DNA of 64,000 bases from an uncultured Actinomycetota bacterium (GCA_963762745.1 CAVXMB010000005.1:146536-210535); one strand, 5' to 3'; shown: positions 16,837 through 39,121, counted from the stretch's first letter. The notes: generated by a model not told the origin, from the letters alone. Translations and numbers: made by a program.

Positions 16837-16838
16837 CG

Positions 16839-19785: not shown

Positions 19786-19790
19786 TTCGC

Positions 19791-21652: not shown

Positions 21653-21662
21653 GCCCCGGAGG

Positions 21663-23006: not shown

Positions 23007-23240
23007 GACACCCTCCTCGCCTCTCTGGGGCATGAGTTGAACGCCGGTTCAGGAGGCTATCCCAGCCGACGGGGAACGCGCAAGGCAGCACGGGCCGGGG
23101 TCCTCCTCATGGGGATACGAGTGGGTGGGCCCCGAGGCTTGCCTTGGGGGTCGAGGCTGGTCCCCTCCGAGACCGGCCCTCGCGAGCGCTCCGCGGGCTG
23201 AGACTCCGCTAGCATCCGCGCGATCCGCCGGAGGGAGACG

Positions 23241-24062: not shown

Positions 24063-24957
24063 CCTCGTCGCCTCGGATCGATCCCCTCGCGGGATCGCGG
24101 CGCTCGCGGTGATCTTCGGGCTCTTCGCCGCATTGGGGTGGGGGCTCGCCGACTTCTTCGGCGCCCTGGCGGGACGCCGGATCGGCGCGATCAGCGCCGT
24201 GGTGGCGGGTCAGGTGCTGTCGGCGGTGTTCATCACGGCGGTGCTCGTCGCCACCGGCGAGTCGGTCGAACCGTTGGGCGCCGACATCTGGCTCGTCGTG
24301 TTGAACGGTGCGGTGGCGGCGCTCGCGTATACGACCCACTACAAGGCGCTCGAACTGGGACCGGTCGCCGTCGTCTCGCCGATCGGTGCGGGATACGCCT
24401 TGGTGGGCGTCGCCCTCGCCGTGCTGATCCTCGGCGAGCGCCCCACCGGACTCGCGCTCATCGGTGCAGCGGTCGCGGTCGTCGGTGTGGCGCTCGTCTC
24501 GACCGATCTCAAGAAGCTGCGCCAGGGCATCGAGAACCGCCTCCCCGGTCTGCCCTGGGCCGTGGTGGCGGCGATCAGCTTCGGCGTCGCGGGGTTCCTC
24601 CTCGGCTGGATCTCGGATCGAGCGGGCTGGATCCCGGGGCTCTGGGGATCCCGGGTGTCCCAGGTCGTGTTCTACCTGCCGCTGTTCTTCGTCTTCCGAC
24701 GCGAGCTCTCGCGGGTTCGCCTCGGCTTCGGTCTGTGGATCGCGCTCCTCGCCGGCGCCGGCGACATCCTCGGGGTCGTGATGTTCTCCGCCGGCTCGGA
24801 GCGCGGCCTCAACTCGATCGTGCTCGCCGCGAGTGCCGTCTTCCCGCTGATCGCGGTAACCCTGTCGGTGATCGTCTTCAAGGAACGGCTCGTCGCGAAC
24901 CAGCTGGTCGGCGTCGTCCTGGTCGTCGGCGGTCTCCTCCTGTTGGGCCTCGGCTGA
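24059..24957 (+). CDS. EamA/DMT family transporter (probable 1-nt deletion near 24092; alternative in-frame GTG start at 24109)
   Basis: WGLADFFG, YKALELGPVAVVSPI, LGERP, FKERL; ATG at 24059 overlaps the upstream TGA. Confidence 0.85.
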
Positions 24958-24966
24958 CCCGACGGG

Positions 24967-26532
24967 CTACCGAACATCTACCCAGAGGGTGTTCTCCTCT
25001 TCGTCTACGCCGATCGCCCGGATCGGGGCCTCGACCGACAGCTCCTCGACCTGACGCGTCTCTCGATCGATGCGGCGGATGATGCCATCCTCGTCTCCCA
25101 CCCAGATCGCTCCGAGTCCGACCGCCAGGGAGGTGGGATCCTCTCCCACGCGGATCTGCGGTCCTCTCTGACCGCCCAAGATCGGCGTGACCAACCCGGC
25201 GTTCTGAGTAAGAACCCATAGGTCGGAGCCGTCCAACTCCAGGATGTCGGCGCCACCCGGTATCTCCAATGGGTCGGCCGGCTCCATGGTCTCAGGGTCG
25301 AAGCGAGTGACTGTTCCTTCGAGGACGTCGCTGGTCCACACGGCTCCAGATCCCGCCGCGATCGCATCGATCGGCGAGAGATCCTTCGTCCGGTTCACGC
25401 GACCGGTCCTCGGATCGAAGCGGAGGAGCTCCCCGTCCGATGTCCCGACCCACACGTAACCGGCACCGATCGTCACATCGGTCGTCCACGAGATGACCGG
25501 ACCGCGCTGTAACGAAGCGACGGATCTGACCTCGCGTGTCCCCGGATGAACCCGTAGCAACTCACGGTCCGTCATCAGCCAGATCGCGTCGTATCCAGAC
25601 GCGATGTTGATCGAGATCGGATTACCTCTCCCGATCGCGGCCCGGCCTCCTTCGTCATCGTCGACGGGATCCACGTGGATCAGCTGATCCCGTCGGATCA
25701 CCCAAACGCCACCCTGTCCGACGACCAGCGGATGCGCGGTGTGCCGAACGGTCCTCGCCTCCTGGAGTGGCCGGACCGAGATCTCCGACAAGGTCCGACC
25801 CGACGCCGGATCTACCTCCAAGAGCGCCCCCGGTGCGGGCGCTTCCGCCCGGGGGGGCGGAGTTCCTGCCTCATCGCCACGCAGCAGCAGCGTCGCCCCG
25901 ATCGTGACGATGCCCACAGCGACGATGCCGGCGAGCCAGACCCGTTGGCGAACGTCACCCTTCCGGCGGGGAACCTCCAACGTGCGAAGGCGTTCGGCTG
26001 CGTCCGCCGCTGGTAACGGCCCGGCACGCGTGCTCCCGTCGACGCCGGTCACTGCCCAGACCTGCCAGGTGCCGGGTACGCCCTTCAGCTCGTGCGCGGA
26101 GAAGTCCTCGAAAGAGAATCCGGCGCCCGTCGCGAGCTCTTTCGTTGTGCTCGACACGAGGATCTCTCCGGCCGTTGCGAGCGACATGACGCGCGAACCG
26201 ATCACCACCGCGATCCCCTGGGTCTTCCCGTCGACCCGCTCGGTCTCGCCGGTGTGGATCCCGCTGCGGATCTCGATGCCCAGTTCTCGGATGGCGTCCG
26301 AGAGAGCGCACGCGCACCTGATCGCCTGGGCTGGCTCGGGGAACGTGGCGAAGAAGCCGTCGCCCGCCCGATCTTCCTCGCGTCCGCCGTGGCGGCGCAG
26401 GAGACCGGTCACGATCCGATTGAACCTCGAGATCAGTTCGCGGAAGCGAGCGTCGCCCAGCTCCGACGCGACCTGCGTCGAGCCTACGATGTCGAGGAAC
26501 AGAACCGTCGCGGTTCGGCGGCTTGCCGGCAT
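24967..26532 (-). CDS. Class III adenylate/guanylate cyclase with a TM helix and a C-terminal beta-propeller-like extracellular domain
   Basis: TVLFLDIVGST, GDGFFATF, IRSGIHTGE, ELKGVPG; TM WLAGIVAVGIVTIGATLLL; repeated G.GAVWV-type units. Confidence 0.88.
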   Translation of the reverse strand: MPASRRTATVLFLDIVGSTQVASELGDARFRELISRFNRIVTGLLRRHGGREEDRAGDGFFATFPEPAQAIRCACALSDAIRELGIEIRSGIHTGETERVDGKTQGIAVVIGSRVMSLATAGEILVSSTTKELATGAGFSFEDFSAHELKGVPGTWQVWAVTGVDGSTRAGPLPAADAAERLRTLEVPRRKGDVRQRVWLAGIVAVGIVTIGATLLLRGDEAGTPPPRAEAPAPGALLEVDPASGRTLSEISVRPLQEARTVRHTAHPLVVGQGGVWVIRRDQLIHVDPVDDDEGGRAAIGRGNPISINIASGYDAIWLMTDRELLRVHPGTREVRSVASLQRGPVISWTTDVTIGAGYVWVGTSDGELLRFDPRTGRVNRTKDLSPIDAIAAGSGAVWTSDVLEGTVTRFDPETMEPADPLEIPGGADILELDGSDLWVLTQNAGLVTPILGGQRGPQIRVGEDPTSLAVGLGAIWVGDEDGIIRRIDRETRQVEELSVEAPIRAIGVDEEENTLWVDVR

Positions 26533-26589
26533 CGGCCGAGTATGGGGGGGCCGGCTCGGGTGCTCAAGGGAGACGGACCATGGCCGAGC

Positions 26590-28242
26590 TCACCCCTGGT
26601 GCCGGTAGAACTCGACCTTCTCCGCCTCGAGGGGCGTGTTCCCGAGGATCAGGTCCGCGGCCTTTTCAGCCAGCATCATCACGGGGGCGTAGATGTTGCC
26701 GTTGGTCACGTACGGCATCGACGACGCGTCGACGACGCGCAATCCCTCCAGCCCGTGCACCTTCATCGTGAGCGGGTCCACGACGGACCGGTCGTCGATG
26801 CCCATCCGGCACGTGCACGAGGGATGCAACGCCGTCTCGCCGTCCCGGCGCACCCAATCCAGCACCTGCTCGTCGGTCTCCACCTGCGGCCCGGGGGAGA
26901 GCTCGCCGCCGTCGAACGGAGCGAACGCCGGCTGCGACAGGATCGTCCGTGCGACCTGGATCGCTTCGACCCACTCCCGCCGGTCCTGCTCGGTCGACAG
27001 GTAGTTGAATCGGAGGGCCGGGTGCACCCGGGGATCGATGCTCGCGATCTTCACCGAGCCCCGTGCATCGGAGTACATCGGTCCGATGTGCACCTGGTAG
27101 CCGTGATCCCCGGCCGGGGCCGACCCGTCGTAGCGCACGGCGACCGGAAGGAAGTGGAACATCAGGTTCGGGTAGGCGACCTCGTCGTTGCTCCGGGCGA
27201 AGCCGCCTGCCTCGAAATGGTTCGTCGCGCCGAGCCCCGAGCGGAAGAACAGCCATTGCGCACCGATGAACGGCTTGCGCCAAAGCTTCAGTCCCGGGGC
27301 GACCGAGACGGGCTGCGTGCACGCGTGCTGCACGTACACCTCCAGGTGATCCTGGAGGTGTTCGCCGACCCCCGGGACGTCGCGCACCACCTCCACGCCG
27401 AGCGCGCGGAGCTCGTCGGCGTTGCCGACACCCGAGAGCTGCAGGGTCTGGGGAGAGTTGATGGCGCCGCCGCACATGATCACTTCCCCTGCGCGGACGC
27501 GCCGGGTCGGGCCCCTGCCACGGGAGTACTCGACGCCCACCGCCCGGGTTCCCTCGAACAGGACCTTGTTGACGAACGCGTGCGTACGCACGTCGAGGTT
27601 CGGTCGGCTCGACACGGGATGCAGGTAGGCGCGGGCGGCTGACAGCCGGCGCCCACGGTGCACGTTCCGGTCGAACGGCGCGAAGCCCTCCTGGCGATAC
27701 CCGTTGACGTCGTCGGTGAGGGGATAGCCGGCCTGCTGCACGGCTTCGAAGAACGCGCCGAACAACGGACTCTTGGCCGGTCCTCGCTCGAGGACCAGTG
27801 GGCCGCTGTGCCCTCGATACTCGTCGGCGGGCTCCGCCGCGAGGCAGCTCTCCATGCGCCGGAAGTACGGCAGGCAATGCGCGTAGTCCCACGTCTCCAT
27901 GCCCGGGTCCGCCGCCCACCGCTCGTAGTCGAGCGGGTTGCCGCGCTGGAAGATCATCCCGTTGATGCTGCTCGACCCGCCGAGGACCTTGCCGCGCGCG
28001 TGATAGATGCGACGCCCGCCCATGTGCGGCTCGGGCTCGGACTCGTACTTCCAGTCGTACCAGCTCCACCCGATCGGGTAGGTGAGCGCCGCCGGCATGT
28101 GGATGAAGACGTCCCAGATGTAGTCGGGACGGCCTGCCTCCAGGACCAGCACCTTGTTCGAGGGATCAGTGGTGAGCCGATTCGCGAGCACGCAGCCGGC
28201 CGAACCGCCGCCGACGATCACGTAGTCGAACGCCCGCTCCAT
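26590..28242 (-). CDS. betA: Choline dehydrogenase
   Basis: [64 protein letters not shown]. Confidence 0.93.
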
Positions 28243-28309
28243 CGGGGGACAGTGTGTCGCAAAGGGCCGCCAGGCGCTCGCGCGGGAACTGCGCTAGCGT
28301 GCTGGCGCG

Positions 28310-29077
28310 ATGGACGGCCCGTCCCCTACCGCCAGCGACACGTTCGAGATCTCGGTGGGTGCCGTTCGGGAGGCGAACGCCCGCGGGATCCCACTGAAGC
28401 TCCTCGGCGGACAGGCGGTCCGTGTGCTCTGTCCCTCCTTCCCGCACCGAGCGCGCGACGGTCAGGACATGGACTTCGCCTGCATCTCGTCCAAGAAGCG
28501 TGACGTGATCGCGTTCTTCGGCGAGCAGGGATTCCTCAGCGATCAGCGCTTCAACACGCTCCACGGCGATCGGCAGATGTACTTCACCACCGCCGACGGC
28601 GCGACCTCGGTCGACGTGGTCATGGACCGGCTCCGCATGTGCCATGAGCTCGAGTTCGGTTCACGGATCGACCGGATGCCCGACACGCTCGACGTCGCCG
28701 ACCTCTTGCTGACGAAGCTCCAGATCTTCGAGCTCAATCGGAAGGACGTGCACGACATCCTCCACCTCTTCTCGGGTTACTCGGTGGCCGAAGGCGATGA
28801 GCCGGGCACGATCGGGACCGACAGGGTGGGCAAGATCGTCGGGGAGGACTGGGGGTGGTGGCGCACCGTCACGATGAACCTGGAGAAGGTCATCCTCTAC
28901 GCGGAGGGGCGTCCACCGGATCTCGTCCCGGAGGATCCTCCGTTCGACCCGTCCGCGCAGGCCATCGCCCTGCTCGACGCGTGCAACGCGGCGCCGAAGA
29001 CCCTGAAGTGGAAGATGCGGGCGAAGGTGGGCGACCGGGTCCAGTGGTACGAGCTCCCGGAGGAGGTCGGCCACTGA
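28310..29077 (+). CDS. Uncharacterised Pol-beta superfamily nucleotidyltransferase (AbiEii/DUF1814/DUF2204-like)
   Basis: LLGGQAV...R...DMDF (GG plus DxD), third carboxylate strand VDVV, LLLTKL, RKDVHD; Trp-rich tail DWGWWRT / W.E.PEE. Confidence 0.72.
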   Translation: MDGPSPTASDTFEISVGAVREANARGIPLKLLGGQAVRVLCPSFPHRARDGQDMDFACISSKKRDVIAFFGEQGFLSDQRFNTLHGDRQMYFTTADGATSVDVVMDRLRMCHELEFGSRIDRMPDTLDVADLLLTKLQIFELNRKDVHDILHLFSGYSVAEGDEPGTIGTDRVGKIVGEDWGWWRTVTMNLEKVILYAEGRPPDLVPEDPPFDPSAQAIALLDACNAAPKTLKWKMRAKVGDRVQWYELPEEVGH

Positions 29078-29150
29078 CGGGAGCGCCGTTGCCCTGCCCG
29101 GCATCCGTCCTGGCTTGCGTGCCGGAGGCTCCGGGGTCAAGATTCCCCCG

Positions 29151-30095
29151 GTGAAGATCTTCTTCGTGACCGACCTCCATGGGTCGGAGATCTGCTGGAA
29201 GAAGTTCCTGAACGCCGGGTCGTTCTACGGCGCGGACGTCGTCATCCTCGGCGGCGACGTCACGGGCAAGGCCATGGTCCCGATCGTCCAGCGGGCGAAC
29301 GGCACGTGGGAAGCCTCCCTCCAGGACCATCGGGACACCCTCGAGTCCGAGGACGCGATCGTCGAGTTCGAGAAGCGCGTGATGGACCGCGGGTACTACC
29401 CGATCCGGGTCTCCGACCAGGAGTACGTCGCGATGCAGGAGGACGAGGACCTCGTCGACAAGCGGTTCAAGGAGGTCATGCTCGACGGCACCGAGCGGTG
29501 GATCGCGATGGCGGAGGAGAAGCTCGCCGGCACCGGGATCCGGGTGATCGCGTGTCCGGCCAACGACGACATGTTCGAGATCGACGACCTGCTGACCGGC
29601 GCCCAGGTGGTCGAGACCGGCGACGAGGAGCACCCGATCCGGCTGGGCGACTTCACGATGGTCTCGATGGGATGGACGAACCCGACGCCTTGGCACACGT
29701 TCCGCGAGGCGGAGGAGCCGGAGTTGGCGACGCGGATCGATCGAGCACTCGAGGCGGCGACGGATCCGGAGACGACGATCTTCAACTTCCACGCGCCGCC
29801 CTACGGATCCAAGCTCGACAACGCGCCGGCCTTGAACCCCGATCTCACCTACGTGTCGGGGGGCCAGGCGATCCGACCGGTCGGGTCGACCGCCGTGCAC
29901 GAATCGATCAAGCGGTTCCAGCCGCTGCTGTCGCTCCATGGGCACATCCACGAGAGCAAAGGCTCGACAAGGATCGGGAAGACGCTGGCGCTGAACCCTG
30001 GGAGCTCCTACGAGGAGGGGATCTTGCAGGCGGCCGTGGTGAACATCGACGAGAAGAAGCGGAAGGTCAAGAACTACCAACTGGTGAACGGCTAG
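29151..30095 (+). CDS. Calcineurin-like (Icc-related) metallophosphoesterase 1
   Basis: TDLHG, GGD, PANDD, FHAPPY, HGHIHE, NPGS. Confidence 0.9.
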   Translation: MKIFFVTDLHGSEICWKKFLNAGSFYGADVVILGGDVTGKAMVPIVQRANGTWEASLQDHRDTLESEDAIVEFEKRVMDRGYYPIRVSDQEYVAMQEDEDLVDKRFKEVMLDGTERWIAMAEEKLAGTGIRVIACPANDDMFEIDDLLTGAQVVETGDEEHPIRLGDFTMVSMGWTNPTPWHTFREAEEPELATRIDRALEAATDPETTIFNFHAPPYGSKLDNAPALNPDLTYVSGGQAIRPVGSTAVHESIKRFQPLLSLHGHIHESKGSTRIGKTLALNPGSSYEEGILQAAVVNIDEKKRKVKNYQLVNG

Positions 30096-30126
30096 ACGGC
30101 CGTTCCGAACCCTGGAGGGGGTGCAG

Positions 30127-31764
30127 ATGGCAGCGGTAGGTGAAGCTCCTACCTTGTTCCTGCGGAAGGCGACCGGCCTGGTGAAAGGCTGGTCGAAGTT
30201 CGACGCGTTCCTGTACTCGTTCATGTCGGTCAACTTCGTGACGCTCGGCTTGTTCTTCGCGTTCTCGGTGCTCGCCTTCGTGCCGACCGGACAGATCCTG
30301 CCGGCCCTACTGATCAGCGGCGTGTTCGTCTCGTTCCTCGTGGTCACGTACGCGGGCCTGATCTCCGTGATGCCACGCGCGGGCGGTGACTATGTCTGGC
30401 AGAGCCGCGTGCTGGGCGGTGGGATCGCGTTCGTGCTGTCGATCACCGGATGGTGGTTCATCCTCTGGTACTGGGCGCCGATCTACGGGAACATCCTCAA
30501 CGTCGAGGTGTTCCAGCCGCTCGCGGCGGTCTTCAAGCTCGACGGCGTCAGCGAGTTCCTCGCGTCGAACAACGGCCTGTTCTTCGTCTGCGCGGTGACG
30601 GTGCTCCTCGCCGGCTATCTGGTGTCCCTCGGCATGGAGGGCTACGCCAAGGTGCAGAAGTTCTGCTTCTACATCGGCATGGCGGCCCTCGCCGCCGTCT
30701 TCCTGGTCATGTTGTTCGGTTCCCAGAGCGGGTTCCAGAACGCCTTCAACCAGGAGGCGACCAACCTCTTCGGCGCGAGCGGCGATGTGTACACCCAGAC
30801 GATCGAGATGGGAACCGTGAACAACGGCGGGCCGATCGTGCCGGAGCTCGGTCTCACTCCCTTCTTCGGGCCGACGCTGCTGCTGGTCCCCTTCCTCTGT
30901 TTCTGGATCCTGTGGCCCAACTGGGGCGCGACGCTCTACGGCGAGGTCCGCGGCGCGAGCGACTTCAAGCGAGTCATGAGCGGCATGATGTGGGGCCTCT
31001 GGATCACGGTCGCCGTGGCGCTGGTGTTCGTCCTCCTTTCGGCCAAGTTCTTCGGCTGGGAGTTCTTCAACGCCGCGAACCTCAACTATTGGGCGGTGGT
31101 GTACGGCTTCGGCGAGGCGACGATCCCCGTGTGGTCCTATCCGCCGCTGCTCGCGAGCTTCTACTTCCACAGCGAGCTGATCTCGGCGCTGATCATCCTG
31201 GCGTTCGGCGCGTGGTTCCTGGGATGGGCCGGGACGCTGTTCCTGTCGTCGACCCGGGTGATCTTCGCGGCGGCCTTCGACCGGATCCTGCCGGAGAAGG
31301 TCGCCGACGTCTCGGAGCGGCGCCACGTACCGGTCTGGGCGCTGATCCTGATGTTGGTGCCGGCGTTGATCGTGAGCGCGTTCTACGCGTACACGTCCAC
31401 ATTCAGGACCTGGATCCTCGACGCCACGCTCGTGATCGCGGTGACGTTCCTCGGCTCTGCGATCGCGGCGATGATCCTGCCCTGGAGGAAGAAGCGGCTC
31501 TACGAGAGCTCTCCGATGGCTCGGTACAAGATCGGCGGGATCCCGCTCATCACCGTAGTGGGCTTCCTCACCGCCGGGTTCCTCATCTTCAACCTGTATC
31601 ACTGGTTCACGAACGATCTGTACGCCATCAACGACCCCGACTCCCTCGTCTTCATGGGGTCGATGTACCTGTTGGCGCTCGTGGTCTACGTGGTCGCGAA
31701 GGTCGTGCGCAAGAGCCAGGGCATCGACCTCGGAGCGATCCACAAGGAGATCCCGGTCGAGTAA
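30127..31764 (+). CDS. APC family amino acid/amine permease
   Basis: FLRKATGLVK, MPRAGGDYVWQSR, GEVRG, RVIFAAAFDRILP; about 12-13 TM segments. Confidence 0.9.
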   Translation: MAAVGEAPTLFLRKATGLVKGWSKFDAFLYSFMSVNFVTLGLFFAFSVLAFVPTGQILPALLISGVFVSFLVVTYAGLISVMPRAGGDYVWQSRVLGGGIAFVLSITGWWFILWYWAPIYGNILNVEVFQPLAAVFKLDGVSEFLASNNGLFFVCAVTVLLAGYLVSLGMEGYAKVQKFCFYIGMAALAAVFLVMLFGSQSGFQNAFNQEATNLFGASGDVYTQTIEMGTVNNGGPIVPELGLTPFFGPTLLLVPFLCFWILWPNWGATLYGEVRGASDFKRVMSGMMWGLWITVAVALVFVLLSAKFFGWEFFNAANLNYWAVVYGFGEATIPVWSYPPLLASFYFHSELISALIILAFGAWFLGWAGTLFLSSTRVIFAAAFDRILPEKVADVSERRHVPVWALILMLVPALIVSAFYAYTSTFRTWILDATLVIAVTFLGSAIAAMILPWRKKRLYESSPMARYKIGGIPLITVVGFLTAGFLIFNLYHWFTNDLYAINDPDSLVFMGSMYLLALVVYVVAKVVRKSQGIDLGAIHKEIPVE

Positions 31765-31786
31765 CGCACCGGGATCGACGGAGCGT

Positions 31787-31812
31787 GGAGGCGGCCTCTC
31801 GAGGCCGCCTCC
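31787..31812 (+). terminator. GC-rich stem-loop after the APC permease (no U-tract)
   Basis: ggaggcggcct-ctcg-aggccgcctcc perfect 11-bp stem; a second hairpin gatcccggt...accgggatc spans the stop codon (31749-31777). Confidence 0.6.
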
Positions 31813-31836
31813 CGTGTCCCTGGGTAGGGTGACTTC

Positions 31837-33285
31837 ATGGCGGACGCGCACCGGATGTTGATCGGAGGCGACTGGGTCGCCTCCAGGAGTGGGGCCACGT
31901 TCGATGCCACGTCGCCGTCGACCGGCGAGGTGATCGGGTCGATCCCGGAGGGCACGCGGATCGACGCGCAGCGCGCGATCGCCGCGGCCAACGATGCGTG
32001 GCCGGGATGGTCGGCGCTCTCTGCGTTCGACCGGGCCGCGGCGATGCGTCGCATCGCCGTCGCGATCGACGAACGCCGGGACGATCTCGCGCGGACGCTC
32101 GCGCTCGACCAGGGCAAGCCGCTCGAAGCCGAGGCGCGCGACGAGGTCGAGGAGCTGATCGCGTACTTCGATATGGCGGCAGCGGACGCGACCCGACTCG
32201 AGGGGCTGATCCCGCCGAGCATCGACGCGGAGAAGCGGGTGTTCCTCTACCGCGTGTCACGGGGTGTCGTAGGCGTGATCAGCCCGTGGAACTGGCCGTA
32301 CACGATGCCCGGCGAGATCGTCGCCCCGGCGCTCGCCGCCGGCAACGCCGTCGTGCTCGCACCGGCCCCCACGACGAGCGTGTGCGCGGTCAAGCTCGCG
32401 GAGTGCATCCACGCGGCGGACCTCCCGCCGGGGACGTTCAACCTCGTGACCGGGCCGGGGCCGGTGGTGGGTGACGAGGTCGCGGCGAACCCGGGGACGG
32501 CGGCCGTCGGCTTCATCGGATCGATCGCGACCGGTCACACGGTCGCCTCGCGCGCGGCCGGCAAGGAGCTCCTGCTCGAGATGGGGGGCAACGGGCCGCT
32601 CGTGATCTGTGAGGACGCCGACCTCGATGCCGCGGTCGAGGCGACCCTCGCGGCCTGCTTCCTCAACGCCGGCCAGAGCTGCACCGCCGGCGAGCGGATC
32701 CTCGTGCACGAGGACGTGAAGGACGACTACGTCGGCAGGCTCTCGAAGGCGATCGAGGAGCGGATCCGGCTCGGCGATCCCTTCGACGACACGACCACGA
32801 TGGGACCGGTCAACAACGAGCCGACGGCCGACAAGACGGAGCGTCATGTGACCGAGGCCCAGGAGCGCGGCGCGACGCTCGTTGCCGGCGGCCATCGCGC
32901 ACCGGCGCACGGGAGCGCGCTGTTCTTCGAAGCCACCGTGCTGGACGGGGTCACCGACGAGATGGAGATCGCCCGGGAGGAGACGTTCGGCCCCGTCGTC
33001 CCGGTAAGCGCGATCCGGTCCGAGCAGGAAGCGATCGACTTGGTGAACGGCTCGCCCTACGGCCTCCTGTCCGCGATCTTCACGAAGGATCTCGGTCGCG
33101 GCCTCCGCTTCGCCGAAGCCGTGCGCACCGGCTGGGTCAACATCAACGAGGGCACGAACTACTGGGAGTCCCACCTCCCGTTCGGCGGCCGGGCGGGATC
33201 CAAGAGCGGCGTCGGCCGCGTCGGCGGCCGCTTCTCGATGGAGCGACTGACCGAGCTGAAGACGATCGTCGTCAACCTCGGGTAG
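31837..33285 (+). CDS. Aldehyde dehydrogenase (SSADH-like)
   Basis: ISPWNWP, LEMGGNGP, NAGQSCTAG, EETFGPV, PFGG. Confidence 0.92.
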   Translation: MADAHRMLIGGDWVASRSGATFDATSPSTGEVIGSIPEGTRIDAQRAIAAANDAWPGWSALSAFDRAAAMRRIAVAIDERRDDLARTLALDQGKPLEAEARDEVEELIAYFDMAAADATRLEGLIPPSIDAEKRVFLYRVSRGVVGVISPWNWPYTMPGEIVAPALAAGNAVVLAPAPTTSVCAVKLAECIHAADLPPGTFNLVTGPGPVVGDEVAANPGTAAVGFIGSIATGHTVASRAAGKELLLEMGGNGPLVICEDADLDAAVEATLAACFLNAGQSCTAGERILVHEDVKDDYVGRLSKAIEERIRLGDPFDDTTTMGPVNNEPTADKTERHVTEAQERGATLVAGGHRAPAHGSALFFEATVLDGVTDEMEIAREETFGPVVPVSAIRSEQEAIDLVNGSPYGLLSAIFTKDLGRGLRFAEAVRTGWVNINEGTNYWESHLPFGGRAGSKSGVGRVGGRFSMERLTELKTIVVNLG

Positions 33286-33295
33286 GCGAACCTCC

Positions 33296-34277
33296 GTGGC
33301 GACGACCCGAAGCGGAGCGACCCGCCTCTTCTTCGCGGCCGACATCCACGGGTCGCAGGTCACGTTCCGGAAGTTCCTCGCGGCCGCGGACTTCTACGGC
33401 GTCGACGCCCTCGTCTTCGGCGGCGACCTGATGGGCAAGGTCCTGGTGCCGATCGTGCGGCACAACGGCGGCTTCCAGGCAACCTTCCAGGGACGCGACG
33501 AGCGATTCGAGGCCGACGGTCTCGAGCCGTTCACGCGCGCGGTCGAGCAGCCCGGCTTCTACTGGAAGGTCTTCGACAGGGACGAGTACGAGGTCCTCGA
33601 AGCCGACCCGCTGGCCAGGCACGGCCTGTTCCACGAGCTCGCGACGGCGAGGCTCGCCGAGTGGATCGAGCTGGCCGAGGATCGGCTGCGCGGGACGGGG
33701 GTCCGGCTCTACATGACCGGAGGGAACGATGACGAGCCCGCAGTGCTGGAAACGCTCGATCACCACGAGGGGGAGCAGGTCTTCGCGAGCGAGGGCCGCC
33801 TGGTCGAGCTCGACGGCGAGCACACGATGATCACGGTCGGGCTCTCGACCTTCACGCCGTGGGACACCCCTCGCGAAGCGAGCGAGGAGGAGATCGCGGG
33901 ATGCGATCGATGCGGCGGTCGGCGCCGTGCCCGACCTCGGCCGCTGCGTGTTCAACCTGCATTGTCCGCCGAAGGACACGCCGATCGACACGTGCCTGAA
34001 GCTGGAGGTCCGTCCCGGCGAGCTGCCTCGGCCGATCCGGGAAGCGGGCCGGTTCGTGACGACGGGCGGGGGGAGCCGGGCGGTGCGGGAGGCGATCGAG
34101 AAGTACCAGCCGCTCGTCGGGCTGCACGGTCACATCCACGAGTCGGGCGGCCGCTTCCGGATCGGTCGAACCCAGACGTTCAACCCGGGAAGCGAGTACG
34201 TGCAGGGCGTGTTGCAGGGCGTGATCGTGACGCTGAAGCGGGGGAAGCTCGCCTCCTACCAACACACGCAGGGATAG
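33296..34277 (+). CDS. Metallophosphoesterase 2, paralogue of 29151-30095; one extra G near 33899
   Basis: ADIHG, GGD, GGNDD in the first frame; LHCPP, HGHIHE, NPGSEY in the second frame (33927-34277 ORF). Confidence 0.85.
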
Positions 34278-34303
34278 AGGCGTTCGATAGTGTCGGCCAC
34301 CTC

Positions 34304-36763
34304 ATGAGGGATCGCGCGCAGCTCGTCGTGATCGGGGCGGGGATCGTCGGCACCAGTGCGGCGTATCACCTGGCCGAGCTCGGAGTGACGGACGTCCTCG
34401 TGATCGATCAAGGCCCGTTGTTCGAGACCGGCGGCTCGACCTCCCACGCGCCGGGACTCGTGTTCCAGACGAACGGCTCGCGGACGATGTGCCGCCTCGC
34501 GCAGTACTCCGTCGACCTGTATTCCGGGCTCGAGCTGGAGGGACAGCCCGCCTGGTACGGGGTCGGTGGCATCGAGGTCGCGACGACCCCGGAGCGGACC
34601 GAGGAGCTGAAGCGCCGGCGGGGTTACGCGCGTGCCTACGGGATCGAGGGGACCGAGCTCCTCACCCCCGAGGAAACCGCCGCGCGGATCCCGATCCTCG
34701 ACCCCGGTCACATCCTCGGTTCCTACCTCGTGCCCTCGGACGGGATCGCCAAGGGCACGCGTGTCGCGGCGGCACTCGCCGCGAAGGCCGAGGAGAAGGG
34801 TGTCGCGTTCGAGGGTGGCGTCCGCGTCACCGGCTTCGACGTCCGCGACGGCATGGTCCATGGCGTCCACACCGACCGAGGTGACATCGAGTGTGCACAG
34901 GTCCTGGTCTGCGCCGGGATCTGGGGCCCGACGATCGGACGGATGGCCGGGGTGCCGATCCCGCTCGCGGTGGTCCAGCACCAGCTCGTGTGGACGAAGC
35001 CGTTGCCGGCGCTCGCAGCGGACGCCGGGCAGGAAGTCGTCCATCCGATCCTCCGTCACCAGGACCTGTCGCTCTACTTCCGCCAGCAGGGCGATCGGTA
35101 CGCGCTCGGCAACTACCGCCACGAGCCGATCCTGTTCGATCCCGACGACCTCCGCCCCTATCGGGACGGGGAGCCGCAGCCGAGCATCGAGCCGTTCACG
35201 CCCGAGCACTTCGAGGTCGCGTACCAGGAGAGCACGAGGCTGCTCCCGCCCGTGAAGGAGATGCTGGACGAGTCGACCGCGATCAACGGCATGTTCTCGT
35301 TCACGCCGGACATGGGTTCGATCGTCGGTGAGTCTGCGGACGTCCGCGGCTTCTGGATCTGCGAGGCCGTCTGGGTCACGCACGGCGGGGGCATGGGGAG
35401 GATGGCCGCCGAATGGATCGCCGGGGGCGAGCCTTCGATGGATATGGCCGAGGCGGATGCGAACCGCTTCTACCCGTTCATGACGACGAAGCCGTACGTC
35501 CGCGCGCGCGGCGCCCAGCAGTACCGCGAGGTCTACGACATCCTCCACCCGCTTCAGCAGATGTCCCATCCGCGCGCGCTGAAGCTGACGCCCTTCTACG
35601 CGCGCCACCGGGACCTCGGCGCCGAGTTCTTCTCGGGTGCCGGCTGGGAGCGGCCGCAATGGTTCGAGGCGAATCACGTGCTGACCGGCGCGCCATGGGA
35701 ATCGCGTAAGGGCTGGGCGGCGCAGAGCTGGTCGCCGTGCGTCGGGGCGGAGCACATCGCCACACGCGAGCGCGTCGGGCTCTTCGACATCACGCCCTTC
35801 GCCAAGTTCGACATCACCGGCGCAGATGCGCTCTCGTTCCTCGAACGCATCTGCGCCAACCGGATCGATCGTCCCGTGGGGACGATCGTCTACACCTCGA
35901 TGCTCACGCCGTCGGGAGGCATCCGGTGCGACCTCACCGTCACCCGGAAGGACGAGGATCGTTTCCGCGTCGTCACCGGGGGCGGGTCGGGGCAGCACGA
36001 CCGCGCGTGGCTGCTCGCCCAGCGGCGCGACGGCGAACGGGTCAACCTCACCGTCCGCACGGGATCGCTCTTCGCGCTCGGTCTGTGGGGACCGCGCGCC
36101 CGCGACGTCCTCCAGGCCGTGACGGACGTCGACGTCTCCAACGACGCGTTCCCGTACATGACCGCTCGCTACCTGAACGTCGGCGAGGTCGATCCCGTTT
36201 GGACGCAGCGGATCTCCTACGCCGGCGAGCTCGGTTGGGAGCTCTACGGGCAGATCGCGATGGGACAGCGAGCCTGGGACGTTCTGTGGGAGGCCGGGCA
36301 GGTGTACGGGATCGTCGCGGCCGGCGGCGGCGCGTTCGACTCCCTGCGCCTCGAGAAGGGTTACCGACTGTGGGGCCAGGACATCCACACGGAGCACGAT
36401 CCGTTCGAGGCCGGCCTCGGCTTCGCCGTCCGGATGGACAAGGGTGCGTTCCAGGGTCGGGAGGCGTTGCAGCGCAAGCTCGACGTCGGGCCGAGCGAGA
36501 GGCTCGCCTGCATCACCCTCGACGATCCCGCCCACGTCGTGATGGGCAAGGAGCCGATCCTGCACGCCGGCCGGGTCGTTTCCTACGTGACGAGCGCCGC
36601 CTACGGCTACTCGATCGGTCGAGGGATCGTCTACGGCTATCTCCCGGCCGAATTGGCGGTGGAGGGAACGCCGGTCGAAGTGGAATACTTCGGCGACCGT
36701 CTGGCGGCTACCGTCGCGGCCGAGCCGTTGTGGGACCCCAAGGGCGAGCGCCTGCGGGCCTGA
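34304..36763 (+). CDS. FAD-dependent oxidoreductase/GcvT fusion (dimethylglycine oxidase/dehydrogenase-like)
   Basis: IGAGIVG, GGSTSHAPG (flavinylated His site), FSFTPD, AVWVTH, GWERPQWF, YAGELGWEL, SLRLEKGY. Confidence 0.9.
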   Translation: MRDRAQLVVIGAGIVGTSAAYHLAELGVTDVLVIDQGPLFETGGSTSHAPGLVFQTNGSRTMCRLAQYSVDLYSGLELEGQPAWYGVGGIEVATTPERTEELKRRRGYARAYGIEGTELLTPEETAARIPILDPGHILGSYLVPSDGIAKGTRVAAALAAKAEEKGVAFEGGVRVTGFDVRDGMVHGVHTDRGDIECAQVLVCAGIWGPTIGRMAGVPIPLAVVQHQLVWTKPLPALAADAGQEVVHPILRHQDLSLYFRQQGDRYALGNYRHEPILFDPDDLRPYRDGEPQPSIEPFTPEHFEVAYQESTRLLPPVKEMLDESTAINGMFSFTPDMGSIVGESADVRGFWICEAVWVTHGGGMGRMAAEWIAGGEPSMDMAEADANRFYPFMTTKPYVRARGAQQYREVYDILHPLQQMSHPRALKLTPFYARHRDLGAEFFSGAGWERPQWFEANHVLTGAPWESRKGWAAQSWSPCVGAEHIATRERVGLFDITPFAKFDITGADALSFLERICANRIDRPVGTIVYTSMLTPSGGIRCDLTVTRKDEDRFRVVTGGGSGQHDRAWLLAQRRDGERVNLTVRTGSLFALGLWGPRARDVLQAVTDVDVSNDAFPYMTARYLNVGEVDPVWTQRISYAGELGWELYGQIAMGQRAWDVLWEAGQVYGIVAAGGGAFDSLRLEKGYRLWGQDIHTEHDPFEAGLGFAVRMDKGAFQGREALQRKLDVGPSERLACITLDDPAHVVMGKEPILHAGRVVSYVTSAAYGYSIGRGIVYGYLPAELAVEGTPVEVEYFGDRLAATVAAEPLWDPKGERLRA

Positions 36764-36777
36764 CCGAAGGAGCTTCG

Positions 36778-37947
36778 ATGGCAGTGAACGAGGACCCGGG
36801 CATCCTGCTCTACACGAGGATCCGCAAGTCGCCCTACTTCTACGCCTCGCGCGAGCACGGCGTGGCGCGCTACAGCGTCTACAACCACACGTACCATCCG
36901 CGCCATTACGGCGACCCGGTGGCCGAGTACTGGCACCTCGTGAACGCGGTGACCATGTGGGACGTCGGCGTCGAGAAGCAGATCCAGATCAAGGGTCCGG
37001 ACGCATTCGACCTCACGAACATGATCGTGCCGCGGGACCTCAACAAGTGCGCGGTGGACCAGTGCAAGTACGTGTTCATCACCGGCCCCGACGGGGGGAT
37101 CCTGAACGACCCCGTCCTCCTGCGGGTCGAGGAGGACGAGTTCTGGCTCTCGCTCGCCGACTCGGACGTGAACCTCTACGCCCTCGGGATCGCGGGCGCG
37201 AAGGGGATGGACGTCACCGTGCAGGAGATCGATGTCGCGCCGGTCCAGATCCAGGGCCCGAACGCGAAGAAGGTGCTGGTCGAGCTGTTCGGCGACAAGA
37301 TCCTCGACGTTCCCTACTACGGGTTGATGAAGGCGGAGCTCGACGGGATGCAGGTCGTGGTCTCGCGCACCGGCTACACGGGTGAGGTCGGCTACGAGAT
37401 CTATCTGCGGGACGCGTCGATGCACGGCGTGCAGCTCTGGGACAGGGTGCTCGAAGCAGGCAAGCCGCACGACCTCCGCGTGATCGGTCCGTGCCACATC
37501 CGTCGCATCGAGGGAGGCATCTTGGCCTTCGGCGCGGACATGTGGTACGAGAACAACCCCTTCGAGGTGGGCTACCACTACACATGGATGGTCGATCTCG
37601 AGCAGGAAGCCGACTTCATGGGCAAGGAAGCCCTGAAGAAGATCAAGGCCGAGGGCGTGAAGCAGAAGCTCGTCGGCGTCGACATCGAGGGCGACCCGCT
37701 CGGCACCTACATCGACAATGAGATGATCGACTTCTTCCCGGCGTCGGCCGGTGGTAGCGTCGTCGGTCGCGTGACGTCGGCGTGCTACTCGCCGCGTATG
37801 GAGAAGAACATCGGGCTCGCGATGCTGCCGATCGAGCACACGGAGCTGGGCACGACCCTCGAGGTCGAGACCCCGAAGGGCAAGGTCGGCGCGACCGTCG
37901 TGCAGACACCCCACTGGGACCCGACCAAGGAGATCCCCAAGGGTTAA
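36778..37947 (+). CDS. GcvT-family THF-dependent aminomethyltransferase/demethylase (DmdA-like)
   Basis: RIRKSPYF, SVYNH, EYWHL...MWDVGVE, ILNDPVLLR, SRTGYTGEVGYEI, RRIEGG. Confidence 0.85.
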   Translation: MAVNEDPGILLYTRIRKSPYFYASREHGVARYSVYNHTYHPRHYGDPVAEYWHLVNAVTMWDVGVEKQIQIKGPDAFDLTNMIVPRDLNKCAVDQCKYVFITGPDGGILNDPVLLRVEEDEFWLSLADSDVNLYALGIAGAKGMDVTVQEIDVAPVQIQGPNAKKVLVELFGDKILDVPYYGLMKAELDGMQVVVSRTGYTGEVGYEIYLRDASMHGVQLWDRVLEAGKPHDLRVIGPCHIRRIEGGILAFGADMWYENNPFEVGYHYTWMVDLEQEADFMGKEALKKIKAEGVKQKLVGVDIEGDPLGTYIDNEMIDFFPASAGGSVVGRVTSACYSPRMEKNIGLAMLPIEHTELGTTLEVETPKGKVGATVVQTPHWDPTKEIPKG

Positions 37948-38104
37948 GGGCAGCTGGCTTTCTTGGGGGCCACTCGATGTCTCGAGCACCGTTCTGATGG
38001 CTGGCTGGCTGTCGGGAGGTTGGGGGAGCCTGGATGGGGGTTCCCAATAGGTCAGCGAGTCAATACACTACGTTGCGTCCGGAAGGAGCCGCGAACCGCG
38101 AACA

Positions 38105-38837
38105 ATGTGGACTCTACTTAAGCGAGTCTTGCCGTACGTTGCGGTATTCTTGATGGGGTCGGTGGCTGCCGTCTTCGCGACGGCCGACCCTCCGAAGCAT
38201 CGTCGTCATGCTAGTGATTCTGGGCTTCCAAGCACAGGGTCACACCACGAACTACTTCCCGGGACCGGCGTGGATCGACAAGTCGGTTGAGTATTACCGA
38301 GCCTCAGACGGGGCGACCTGGAACACATCTTGGAACAATAGTCTGGACTTTGGTGACAGCAAATGGAGCAACATCAGCGTGGGCGACGGGTTCACCTATA
38401 TTCGACAATCGGTGTTGCGTGATCAGGTGAGTTGCATCAACTTCGCCAATGAGGACAGCGTCGTCAAACGATGGTCGCAAGACGGTCCAGGTGGGCACCT
38501 TGGCGGTGCAGGTGTCTGCCATATGGGAGGAGCGGGAGAGAAGTTCAACATGGACTTCGACACCGACGAAGACTGGCATCACCAGGCAGGAAGCGATGGT
38601 GTGCCCAACACCGTGAGCGCCCATGGCGTCGCCACTCATGAGTTCGGGCATGCGGCTGGTGGATGGCTGACGTCTACCGGTTCGCCTGGACACTTCACAT
38701 CTTCCGCGGACTGCAACTGGGCCGACCCACCCAGTGTCCAGACCATGTGCGAAAACCTGGGCGGTGATCTGGACAACTCGGACAAGTGGCAGACCATCGA
38801 AACGCACGACACTCACGAGTTCACGGCGGAGTATTAG
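38105..38837 (+). CDS. Secreted matrixin/metzincin-like zinc metalloprotease (signal peptide at 38105 probably joined by a frameshift near 38195; the in-frame ORF starts at 38208)
   Basis: D..FD..E.W, VATHEFGHAAG (HExxHxxG), distal GHF, Met-turn-like QTMC; TACACT -10 box near 38064. Confidence 0.7.
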
Positions 38838-38851
38838 GAGGCGACATCCTG

Positions 38852-39121
38852 ATGAGACGACTCCTTATCGTGAGCGTGTTTGCTGCCCTTGGGGCAGGAA
38901 TAGGAGCGCTCCTCATAGTTGCGAACGGCGGGTACTGCTCCGACGGTGTTAGCGAGTCGTTCTGCGGAAGGAGACTCTTCGGGTGGCAGTTTTCCTCCGC
39001 CGTGGCTATCGGATACGCGGTTGGGTTTGGCGCCGTGATTGGTGCGTCGATTGGGTTCTTGGTCGATTACGCATTTGGGAGATTGCGGCAGCCCCGAGAG
39101 TTCATCGATCAGATCGAATGA
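38852..39121 (+). CDS. Small two-TM membrane protein with a Cys pair
   Basis: AGGAGG RBS right after the protease stop; TM-YCSDGVSESFCG-TM. Confidence 0.65.
   Translation: MRRLLIVSVFAALGAGIGALLIVANGGYCSDGVSESFCGRRLFGWQFSSAVAIGYAVGFGAVIGASIGFLVDYAFGRLRQPREFIDQIE

What the first reader, a model, noticed from the sequence alone, without database searches (positions are those of the whole stretch)
28310..34277. Nucleotidyltransferase + two metallophosphoesterases + APC permease module: candidate undescribed writer/eraser or phosphodiester-salvage system
Seen: five co-directional genes divergent from betA. They are an orphan NTase (GG..DxD, third Asp, KL, KD..D), MPE1, an APC permease, an ALDH and MPE2, followed by two GcvT-family genes. 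No HTH antitoxin, GlnB or sugar-nucleotide gene is adjacent. Established: this NTase motif set is shared by AbiEii/MenT-type toxins and by LicD-type phosphocholine transferases, and calcineurin-like MPEs cleave phosphomono- and diesters. Inference: (a) a reversible nucleotidylation switch (NTase writes, MPE erases) controlling the permease or catabolic enzymes, or (b) import and processing of a phospho- or nucleotidyl-amine (e.g. a phosphocholine-type compound) that releases substrate for BetA or the GcvT enzymes. I recall similar NTase/MPE/APC trios in archaea and uncultured bacteria, but this is unverified.
Basis: partly seen in the sequence, partly recalled or inferred. Interest (0 to 1): 0.8.

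Follow-up and report, generated by a model that had tools for sequence, protein, structure and literature searches.

The report
Conserved nucleotidyltransferase–phosphoesterase–permease amine-uptake module
Inside a choline-breakdown gene cluster sits a tightly linked trio of genes (a small nucleotidyltransferase, a metallophosphoesterase and an unusual permease) that recurs together in soil bacteria and several archaeal groups, has never been characterised, and probably represents an undescribed way of coupling nucleotide chemistry to the uptake of small nitrogen compounds.

Summary
Divergent from a true betA lie NT (28310-29077), MPE1, an APC-type permease, an ALDH, MPE2 and two GcvT-family genes. 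MPE2 is frameshifted, but only in this assembly.

NT has no Pfam hit. It folds as a Pol-beta nucleotidyltransferase closest to MenT1 and ANT(2''), with all catalytic Asp invariant. MPE1 has every metallophosphoesterase motif. Its nearest structures are of unknown function.

The core is NT+MPE+APC:
- Of 115 unique NT loci, 102 have the MPE within 3 kb and 93 have both partners.
- In 151 Actinomycetota genomes, the same 16 hold all three families and 0 of the other 135 hold any.
- The trio also occurs in Chloroflexota, Bathyarchaeia, Thermoplasmata and Micrarchaeia. One 1.9-Mb Bathyarchaeia genome has five full trios.
- Neighbours vary but are always amine, amide or quaternary-amine catabolism genes.

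I found no description in print. The mechanism is unresolved. My best guess (about 0.4) is a nucleotidylation/hydrolysis cycle controlling the cognate permease, analogous to GlnD-GlnK-AmtB. The main rival (about 0.3) is that the two enzymes process the imported compound. A toxin-antitoxin or LicD reading is not supported.

The parts
26590..28242 (-). betA, choline dehydrogenase (GMC oxidoreductase), divergent from the operon
   Evidence: NCBIfam TIGR01810 scores 841 bits against a cut-off of 732. Pfam finds GMC_oxred_N and GMC_oxred_C. A GMC homologue lies within 6 kb of NT in 62 of 115 unique loci.
28310..29077 (+). NT: 255-aa Pol-beta-fold nucleotidyltransferase of an unnamed family, a distant relative of PF14907
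   Evidence: No Pfam or NCBIfam hit. The AlphaFold model has pLDDT 91.2. Best structural matches are MenT1 at Z 11.2 and ANT(2'') at Z 11.1. G33, D53, D55, D106, K136, K145, D146 and D149 are invariant. There is one copy in the genome.
29115..30095 (+). MPE1: 326-aa calcineurin-like metallophosphoesterase of the aq_1956/TT1561 type, with an extra insertion
   Evidence: PF14582 scores 28.3 bits. All metal-binding motifs are invariant in 31 sequences. The model has pLDDT 92.9. Best structural matches are 2yvt at Z 24.0 and 1uf3 at Z 22.8.
30121..31764 (+). APC-superfamily permease of a distinct subfamily, with a conserved cytoplasmic N-terminal motif (LFLRKATGLVK, residues 12-22) and a conserved C-terminal tail (GIDLGAIHKEIPVE-COOH)
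   Evidence: PF13520 scores 42.4 bits. The N motif occurs in 85 of 96 subfamily ORFs and the tail in 84 of 96. It is the only such gene in the genome.
31837..33285 (+). Aldehyde dehydrogenase, probably betaine-aldehyde dehydrogenase
   Evidence: PF00171 at 1e-144. The best NCBIfam models are BADH and others, all below their cut-offs. The gene is absent from many close relatives of the locus.
33296..34277 (+). MPE2: a paralogue of MPE1 (about 38% identity), split here by a 1-base insertion near 33897-33903
   Evidence: The two frames are shown. The genome search splits the match at residue 206/207. The extra base is absent from 5 of 5 relatives and from contigs of 4 of 4 runs.
34298..36763 (+). 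DAO-FAO_M-GCV_T-GCV_T_C protein (dimethylglycine/sarcosine oxidase-dehydrogenase type)
   Evidence: Pfam and NCBIfam.
36802..37947 (+). GcvT-family, DmdA-like aminomethyltransferase. The start is approximate.
   Evidence: NF009133 scores 343 bits, below its cut-off of 410. Pfam finds GCV_T and GCV_T_C.

Best explanation
NT, MPE1 and the APC permease are one conserved three-component uptake module for small nitrogen compounds. In this window the module is built into a choline to glycine-betaine to dimethylglycine/sarcosine catabolic cluster, so the permease most likely imports choline or a close quaternary amine.

Proposed mechanism (inferred, not shown): NT uses an NTP to put a nucleotidyl group on a cytoplasmic part of its cognate permease, or on a factor bound to it. 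MPE hydrolyses that phosphodiester again. Together they form an on/off cycle that sets transport activity according to the cell's state. This is the logic of GlnD/GlnK/AmtB, but with separate writer and eraser proteins, no PII protein, and an APC carrier instead of Amt.

Shown: the three families co-occur and co-localise almost without exception. Both enzymes keep complete catalytic sets. The permease subfamily carries its own conserved cytoplasmic N- and C-terminal motifs.

Inferred: that the enzymes oppose each other, and that the target is the permease.
For: 1. Co-localisation. Of 115 unique NT loci, MPE lies within 3 kb in 102, within 300 nt in 91, and MPE plus APC are both present in 93. 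Among the 69 loci with at least 5 kb on both sides, 64 have both.

2. Phyletic profile. In 151 sampled Actinomycetota genomes, NT is in 16, MPE is in 15 of the same 16, and the APC subfamily is in the same 16. The sixteenth MPE is cut by a contig end. None of the other 135 genomes has any of the three.

3. Range. The trio persists across domains: Limnocylindrales, Solirubrobacterales, Bathyarchaeia, Thermoplasmata and Micrarchaeia.

4. Duplication as a unit. One 1.9-Mb Bathyarchaeia genome has 9 NT, 7 MPE and 14 APC genes in 5 full trios. Copy numbers match in other genomes: NT:MPE:APC rows at the thresholds used are 2:2:2 and 3:3:3; a third genome gives 2:3:2, its third MPE row being a weak fragment on a short contig.

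5. Context. The neighbouring enzymes change: choline dehydrogenase, amidohydrolases, CN-hydrolases, class-III aminotransferases, MttB, formamidase, GS-like and saccharopine-DH-like enzymes. NT and MPE meanwhile keep 26 and 38 invariant positions. This fits a common target rather than the variable substrate.

6. Catalytic competence. NT keeps D53, D55 and D106. MPE keeps DxH, GD, GNDD, H and GHxH.

7. Permease hallmarks. The subfamily has cytoplasmic motifs outside the Pfam core: F-x-R-x-[AS]-[ST]-G-L-V-[KR], with an always-Ser/Thr position 18, and a tail ending in [ILV]-P-[VP]-[ED].

8. Architecture. In Micrarchaeia, NT is fused to two tandem PRTase-like domains, the second degenerate. This recalls an NT domain followed by tandem ligand-sensor domains, as in GlnD. 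That architecture of GlnD is recalled knowledge.
Against: - No target is shown.
- The permease motifs are also kept by 7 APC paralogues in the Bathyarchaeia genome that have no adjacent NT or MPE. They may therefore be intrinsic to the carrier.
- 13 of 115 NT loci lack an MPE nearby, and some NT genes sit beside enzymes only.
- The choline-type clusters carry a second MPE without a second NT.
- NT's closest structural relatives include small-molecule O-nucleotidyltransferases (ANT(2''), LnuA), and NT is acidic like them, with pI about 5.
- I recall no precedent for a calcineurin-like MPE removing a protein-bound nucleotide.
- The loci sampled by similarity are biased towards relatives of the window.
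Confidence: 0.4

Rival explanations
1. Substrate processing. NT and MPE act one after the other on the imported compound or on a conjugate of it. For example, NT could O- or N-nucleotidylate an amino alcohol or amine and MPE could then cleave the phosphodiester. Alternatively, MPE1 and MPE2 could release choline from a phospho- or nucleotidyl-amine that the permease imports. The product would feed BetA, ALDH and the GcvT-type enzymes.
For: - NT is structurally as close to ANT(2'') (Z 11.1) and LnuA (Z 9.5), which nucleotidylate hydroxyls of cationic small molecules, as it is to MenT1.
- NT is acidic, with pI about 5 in bacteria.
- The module always sits among catabolic enzymes.
- There is a second MPE in the choline clusters.
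- The fusion to a Gpt-like PRTase domain with an intact PRPP loop points to nucleotide chemistry.
- Some NT genes lie next to enzymes without a permease.
- Separate paralogous NT/MPE pairs per permease fit substrate-specific enzymes.
Against: - The implied substrates (quaternary amines, amides, polyamines, methylamines) share no common acceptor group, yet NT and MPE keep many invariant non-catalytic positions.
- Nucleotidylation followed by hydrolysis gives no net chemistry unless the cleavage is on the other side of the phosphate.
- APC carriers are not known to carry phosphodiesters (recalled).
- BetA needs free choline, and no further activating step is evident.
Confidence: 0.3
2. Signal nucleotide pair. 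NT makes a small nucleotide messenger or alarmone and MPE degrades it. The messenger acts on the permease or on the catabolic genes.
For: - Pol-beta-fold enzymes include messenger synthases. CD-NTases and Rel appear low in the fold lists.
- An MPE profile search weakly matches the Ap4A hydrolase SapH (3qfm, E 2.4e-4) and Rv0805-type cNMP phosphodiesterases. MPPED2 scores Z 20.3.
- A cNMP-binding protein follows NT in one locus, L017.
Against: - No conserved receptor gene is present in the module.
- One messenger pair per permease paralogue (5 trios in one genome) is hard to reconcile with a diffusible signal.
- The top structural relatives are transferases acting on acceptors, not cyclases.
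Confidence: 0.1
3. MenT/AbiEii-like toxin module. NT would be a growth-arresting tRNA nucleotidyltransferase, and MPE would be its antidote or a repair enzyme.
For: MenT1, MenT3 and MenT4 are among the best structural matches, with Z 11.2, 8.6 and 7.8.
Against: - No PF08843 hit in 26 members, and no AbiEi/MenA-type neighbour.
- No PADLOC hit for NT.
- No conserved Ser/Thr two residues before the DxD, where MenT3 carries its phosphoacceptor S78 (PMC11375011 section 12).
- Acidic pI.
- Syntenic chromosomal position inside catabolic operons, with 70% or higher identity across many MAGs.
- Strict linkage to a permease.
Confidence: 0.03

Closest known systems
MenT/AbiEii (DUF1814) nucleotidyltransferase toxins
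   Same: Minimal Pol-beta fold plus a helical C-domain. GG...DxD, a third Asp and a K...KD..D helix motif are shared. MenT1 is the top structural match, at Z 11.2 over 168 residues.
   Different: - No PF08843 hit.
- No antitoxin gene.
- No conserved phosphoacceptor before the DxD.
- Acidic rather than basic.
- Embedded in catabolic operons.
- Always found with an MPE and a permease.
ANT(2'')-Ia and LnuA antibiotic nucleotidyltransferases
   Same: Same small fold (Z 11.1 and 9.5). They are acidic proteins that act on cationic small molecules. 1 of 26 family members weakly matches PF10706 (E 0.028).
   Different: There is no resistance context. NT carries about 60 extra conserved C-terminal residues (K230, W234, R237, W246, Y247). 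Its acceptor is unknown.
GlnD-GlnK-AmtB (and GlnE) reversible nucleotidylation control of nitrogen uptake and assimilation
   Same: A Pol-beta NTase is paired with a phosphohydrolase and linked to a carrier of a nitrogen compound. The Micrarchaeial NT fused to tandem ligand-binding-type domains recalls GlnD's NT plus tandem ACT domains. The GlnD architecture is recalled knowledge.
   Different: - Writer and eraser are separate proteins.
- The hydrolase is a calcineurin-like MPE, not an HD domain.
- There is no PII protein.
- The carrier is an APC, not an Amt.
- There is one pair per permease.

This is a resemblance of logic only. Nothing here tests it.
aq_1956 (2YVT) and TT1561 (1UF3), the Pfam Metallophos_3 family
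   Same: These are the best structural matches to MPE1, at Z 24.0 and 22.8. The same motif variant GNDD is present.
   Different: Both are structural-genomics proteins with no assigned function. MPE1 is about 70-100 residues longer and has the family motifs TPWxTxRE and PVGS.
BetT-BetA-BetB choline uptake and oxidation system
   Same: A choline dehydrogenase and an aldehyde dehydrogenase lie next to a putative choline importer.
   Different: The importer is an APC-type carrier, not a BCCT carrier. It comes with NT and MPE. The cluster continues into demethylation genes, so it serves catabolism rather than only osmoprotection.

Membership tests
Pol-beta-fold nucleotidyltransferase superfamily | The fold, with hG[GS], DxD and a third carboxylate on the adjacent strand | tested here: met
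   The model has pLDDT 91.2. The top fold matches are all NTases. G33/G34, D53, D55 and D106 are invariant in 26 sequences.
DUF1814 / AbiEii / MenT (PF08843) | Match to the family profile | tested here: not met
   PF08843 is not among the families matched by any of the 26 members at E up to 1. The window protein has no Pfam hit at E up to 0.01.
DUF1814 / AbiEii / MenT (PF08843) | Adjacent cognate antitoxin (AbiEi/MenA type) | tested here: not met
   The neighbours are betA and MPE1 in the window. In other loci the neighbours are MPE, APC and catabolic enzymes.
DUF1814 / AbiEii / MenT (PF08843) | Ser/Thr phosphoacceptor just upstream of the DxD (MenT3 S78 before D80xD82) | tested here: not met
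   Positions -1 to -3 before D53 are variable (G, D, A, N, P, Q, H) in alignment A1. The MenT3 position is taken from PMC11375011 section 12.
PF14907 NTP_transf_5 (uncharacterised nucleotidyltransferase) | Profile match above the gathering score (31.2 bits) | tested here: inconclusive
   10 of 26 members match weakly, best E 9.1e-6. The best score seen was 27.0 bits for P0246. The window protein does not match. This looks like a distant sister family.
LicD / fukutin-type phosphotransferases | Profile or fold closer to LicD/FKRP than to other NTases | tested here: inconclusive
   No Pfam LicD hit. FKRP 6kaj scores only Z 5.5 over 112 residues, against 11.2 for MenT1.
Calcineurin-like metallophosphoesterases (PF00149/PF14582) | Motifs DxH, GD, GN[HD][DE], H and GHxH | tested here: met
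   D20, H22, G47, D48, N150, D151, D152, H226, H275, G276, H277 and H279 are invariant in 31 sequences. PF14582 scores 28.3 bits against a cut-off of 28.2. The fold matches at Z 24.0 to 2yvt.
APC superfamily (PF13520 AA_permease_2) | Profile match above the gathering score | tested here: met
   42.4 bits against a cut-off of 27. About 12-13 hydrophobic segments are present.
GlnD-type uridylyltransferase/uridylyl-removing system | NT and HD domains in one protein, with a PII target protein | tested here: not met
   No HD domain and no PII gene occurs in the window cluster or in the surveyed loci. The comparison is one of logic only.
Choline dehydrogenase BetA (TIGR01810) | Equivalog score above the cut-off | tested here: met
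   841.2 bits against a cut-off of 732.1.

The most novel reading that the evidence does not exclude
NT, MPE and APC form a previously unrecognised class of three-component transport system. In it, a secondary carrier for small nitrogen compounds is covalently nucleotidylated and de-nucleotidylated by its own dedicated writer and eraser. Alternatively, uptake is driven or trapped by nucleotidyl transfer to the cargo. Either way it would be an ancient system shared by bacteria and archaea and multiplied per substrate in Bathyarchaeia.
Probability: 0.3. Interest if true: 0.85.

Novelty: new variant of a known kind. Interest (0 to 1): 0.72.

Why it matters
Choline, betaines, methylamines and polyamines are major nitrogen and carbon currencies in soil and sediment. 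The organisms carrying this module are abundant, uncultured lineages of Actinomycetota, Chloroflexota, Bathyarchaeia and DPANN archaea.

A dedicated nucleotidyltransferase/phosphoesterase pair tied one-to-one to a permease subfamily would be a new principle of transporter control or energisation. It would also assign a role to three large families now annotated only as 'hypothetical protein', 'metallophosphoesterase' and 'APC family permease'. The NT family alone comprises at least 2969 clusters at 50% identity.

The question is directly testable with three small, well-folding proteins.

Tried and rejected
- **Complex prediction.** NT + MPE1 + the permease's last 30 residues, with the tail as partner: verdict 'no answer', ipSAE 0.01 and 0.00, controls not run. 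This is no evidence either way.
- **An apparent APC-NT fusion.** Open frames of 830-870 aa over NT in G141 and G041 are out-of-frame open reading in GC-rich DNA. They are not fusions.
- **The BetA-NT 868-aa protein P0121.** It is a single record and may be a read-through, so I gave it no weight.
- **Sequence searches of the PDB.** With NT and its profile they found nothing. With the permease they found nothing.
- **Rfam.** No RNA family in 23000-40000 at E up to 0.1.
- **Promoter and terminator scan.** Nothing above the shuffles.
- **PADLOC.** NT has no match. MPE matches only a generic weak PDC-S10 model.
- **Public runs.** No run holds more than 0.17 of the sampled words of 33500-34300. Expression could not be examined, and I make no habitat claim.
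- **Cultured hosts.** Two large homologue lists gave only unnamed or 'hypothetical' metagenomic proteins.
- **Mirror-tree comparison.** Comparing the paralogous modules in G001 gave no clear signal.
- **Literature.** Six full-text searches found no description of the trio.

Full report
**Observation**

The window is GC-rich (about 0.68).
- betA at 26590-28242(-). TIGR01810 scores 841 bits against a cut-off of 732.
- On the other strand: NT (28310-29077, 255 aa, no Pfam or NCBIfam hit), MPE1 (29115-30095), an APC-type permease (30121-31764), an aldehyde dehydrogenase (31837-33285), MPE2 (33296-34277), a DAO-FAO_M-GCV_T protein (about 34298-36763) and a DmdA-like GcvT protein (about 36800-37947).

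No HTH, PII or sugar-nucleotide gene is adjacent.

One correction concerns MPE2. It is in two frames here because of one extra base near 33897-33903. Five of five related loci lack that base. So do contigs from four of four soil runs that cross the place, one of them about 98-99% identical. MPE2 is therefore intact in relatives, and the break is peculiar to this assembly. The genome is a 2.28-Mb, 8-contig, 74%-complete MAG, and several related long-read MAG loci show similar frame breaks in other genes.

**The three core proteins**

*NT.* It has 3349 relatives at E up to 0.001 among the 3896 candidates scored. The 120 best are all unnamed or 'hypothetical' and have no precomputed Pfam domain. 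A profile search of 1.84 billion cluster representatives finds 2969 clusters at E up to 0.001 and 933 at E up to 1e-30, nearly all 245-280 aa.

An alignment of 26 members from bacteria and archaea keeps G33, A36, D53, D55, D106, H112, R119, K136, Q138, N143, K145, D146, D149, D180-W181-G182, K230, W234, R237, W246 and Y247.

The AlphaFold model (pLDDT 91.2) has a Pol-beta fold. The best matches are:

| Structure | Z | Aligned residues |
|---|---|---|
| MenT1 | 11.2 | 168 |
| ANT(2'') | 11.1 | 154 |
| a fungal NTase-like protein | 9.8 | |
| LnuA | 9.5 | |
| JHP933 | 9.0 | |
| MenT3/TglT | 8.6 | |
| FKRP (LicD-like) | 5.5 | |

All are, and Foldseek gives the same top set. Ten of 26 members weakly match PF14907 (best E 9.1e-6, below the gathering score). 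The window protein does not match.

*MPE1.* It keeps every metallophosphoesterase motif in 31 sequences, plus the family motifs TPWxTxRE and PVGS. Its model (pLDDT 92.9) is closest to aq_1956 (Z 24.0) and TT1561 (Z 22.8), both of unknown function. MPPED2 and Mre11 follow at about Z 20.

*The permease.* It is a weak PF13520 match (42 bits) and belongs to a distinct subfamily. Outside the Pfam core it carries an N-terminal cytoplasmic motif F-x-R-x-[AS]-[ST]-G-L-V-[KR] and an extreme C-terminal tail G-[IV]-D...[YFH]-x-x-[ILV]-P-[VP]-[ED]. Both are kept at only about 22% overall identity, from Actinomycetota to Micrarchaeia. The N motif occurs in 85 of 96 subfamily ORFs and the tail in 84 of 96. 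The misses are mostly truncated or mis-started ORFs.

**Linkage**

Two scans of species-representative genomes gave 58 and 80 loci. A third scan added three archaeal loci. After removing duplicates, 115 unique loci remain:

| Feature | All 115 loci | 69 loci with at least 5 kb on both sides |
|---|---|---|
| MPE within 3 kb | 102 | 65 |
| MPE within 300 nt | 91 | |
| APC within 5 kb | 95 | 64 |
| MPE and APC both | 93 | 64 |
| GMC (BetA-like) within 6 kb | 62 | 40 |

These loci were chosen by similarity to the window's NT, so they over-represent its relatives.

An independent, evenly drawn sample of 151 Actinomycetota genomes gives a cleaner test. NT is in 16, the MPE family is in 15 and the APC subfamily is in 16. 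These are the same 16 genomes. The one missing MPE (G041) is cut by a contig end. None of the other 135 genomes has any of the three at the thresholds used. Two of the 16 (G023, G125) are flagged unpublished. Without them the count is 14 of 149.

Gene order varies: NT-MPE-APC, APC-MPE-NT, APC-NT-MPE, or APC on the opposite strand.

Thirteen of the 115 NT loci lack an MPE nearby. Four of these come from MAGs that hold a full trio at another locus (the record names pair L086/L099, L088/L111, L092/L018 and L109/L008). In G005, the 'orphan' NT genes lie 13-43 kb from NT-less MPE-APC pairs.

**Range and multiplication**

The trio occurs in Limnocylindrales, Solirubrobacterales, Bathyarchaeia, Thermoplasmata and Micrarchaeia. 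MPE-NT also occurs in a Marsarchaeota MAG.

One 1.9-Mb Bathyarchaeia genome (G001) has 9 NT, 7 MPE (one broken) and 14 APC (one broken) genes. Five complete trios are among them. The paralogues are old: NT 29-49%, MPE 39-54% and APC 29-33% identical. All eight further APC paralogues checked there keep both motifs, and seven of the eight have no adjacent NT or MPE. The motifs therefore mark the subfamily and do not by themselves show docking of NT or MPE.

**Context**

Around the trio the enzymes change, but the theme is constant:
- choline dehydrogenase (the commonest)
- PotD-type binding proteins and ABC parts
- amine oxidase
- amidohydrolases and CN-hydrolases
- class-III aminotransferases
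- M20 peptidases and hydantoinases
- carbamate kinase with an OTCase-like gene
- saccharopine-dehydrogenase-like genes and arginine decarboxylase
- MttB-family methyltransferase and formamidase
- a glutamine-synthetase-like gene

The window itself adds a PotABCD-like transporter, another ALDH, SoxG and a third GcvT gene. The cargo is therefore most likely a small amine, amide or quaternary amine. In this window it is choline or a near relative.

**Fusions**

Among longer homologues, 11 of 12 are NT fused to PF00156 phosphoribosyltransferase domains, about 570 aa long, from Micrarchaeia and an acid-mine metagenome. The first PRT domain keeps the PRPP loop and the second is degenerate. In two Micrarchaeia loci the order is APC-MPE-NT::PRT::PRT. 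One representative is a winged-helix::NT fusion (P0234). One BetA::NT record (P0121) stands alone and may be a read-through.

**Mechanism**

What is shown:
- The three families form a unit.
- Both enzymes are catalytically complete.
- The unit duplicates as a unit.
- It serves nitrogen-compound catabolism.

What is inferred is what the enzymes act on.

I favour, at about 0.4, a nucleotidylation/hydrolysis cycle on the cognate permease or on something bound to it. My reasons:
- The enzymes stay constant while the cargo and the downstream enzymes change.
- Each permease paralogue tends to have its own pair.
- The carrier has conserved cytoplasmic ends, including an always-Ser/Thr residue before TM1.
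- NT plus a hydrolase plus a nitrogen carrier repeats the logic of GlnD-GlnK-AmtB.

The main rival, at about 0.3, is that the pair processes the cargo. ANT(2'') and LnuA are equally close structural relatives. NT is acidic, with pI about 5. The second MPE, the PRT fusion and the enzyme-only neighbourhoods all fit small-molecule chemistry.

A messenger synthase/hydrolase pair (about 0.1) lacks a receptor and fits poorly with one pair per permease.

A MenT-like toxin reading (about 0.03) fails four tests: family profile, antitoxin, phosphoacceptor position (PMC11375011 section 12 read) and PADLOC.

**Novelty**

Six full-text searches found no paper describing this trio or either family's function. 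I saw only listings and abstracts, except for the one MenT paper, of which I read the outline and section 12. About 1.7 million PMC articles and subscription journals are outside the searched library, so prior description cannot be excluded.

The parts are new members of known superfamilies. The system-level association is undescribed as far as these searches reach. If the switch model is right, it is a new variant of reversible nucleotidylation control. If the cargo is nucleotidylated, it is a new kind of uptake chemistry.

**Limits**

- No experiment or expression data bear on the function.
- The single complex prediction gave no answer.
- No cultured host was identified.
- The structure models could not be inspected residue by residue, so I make no statement about the acceptor pocket.

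Noticed in passing
window 33897-33903: A single extra base splits MPE2 into two frames. It is absent from 5 of 5 related loci and from contigs of 4 of 4 soil runs. It is probably a long-read assembly error rather than a pseudogene. Several related MAG loci (for example L004, L012, L038) show similar breaks in DMGO or APC genes.
   Followed up: yes
G001 (the genome of L054); loci L137-L144 and L150-L157: A 1.9-Mb Bathyarchaeia genome carries 9 NT, 7 MPE and 14 APC-subfamily genes, including 5 complete trios. They lie next to MttB, Fae-Hps, formamidase, aminotransferase and GS-like genes.
   Followed up: partly
P0122-P0132, P0212, P0267; L134:6992-8731, L135:3823-5562: In Micrarchaeia and an acid-mine metagenome, NT is fused to two tandem phosphoribosyltransferase-like domains. 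The first has an intact PRPP loop and the second is degenerate. The fusion gene still lies downstream of APC and MPE.
   Followed up: partly
P0234 (396 aa): One cluster representative has a MarR/IclR-like winged-helix domain fused to the N-terminus of NT. It is a single case and its context is unknown.
   Followed up: no
window 24967-26532 (-): A 521-aa protein with a weak adenylate/guanylate cyclase domain (PF00211, 5e-9) and a beta-propeller-like C-terminal part lies directly beyond betA. Its GC3 is lower (0.79) than that of its neighbours.
   Followed up: no
window 15388-24957 and 41561-43199: The flanks hold a second ALDH, a PotABCD-like ABC transporter (SBP_bac_8, two permeases, an ATPase with TOBE_2), an enoyl-CoA hydratase, an EamA transporter, and further on SoxG plus a third GcvT gene. 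The whole region is an amine/one-carbon catabolic island. ECH, EamA and SBP_bac_8 recur in 25-28 of 112 related loci.
   Followed up: partly
window 38001-40000: A local GC dip to 0.605 holds a matrixin-like (Peptidase_M10) ORF at 38208-38837 with low GC3 (0.68). It may be foreign DNA that ends the operon.
   Followed up: no
L145 (G141) and L146 (G041): The genome search reported open frames of 830-870 aa over NT. These are out-of-frame open reading in GC-rich DNA upstream of NT, not fusions. Open-frame lengths in such genomes need this caution.
   Followed up: yes
L054:9745-10716 (-), L058:8267-9208 (-): Two small conserved ORFs (about 145 and 165-175 aa, no Pfam hit) sit between MPE and the opposite-strand APC in four Bathyarchaeia loci. 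They could be extra module parts.
   Followed up: no
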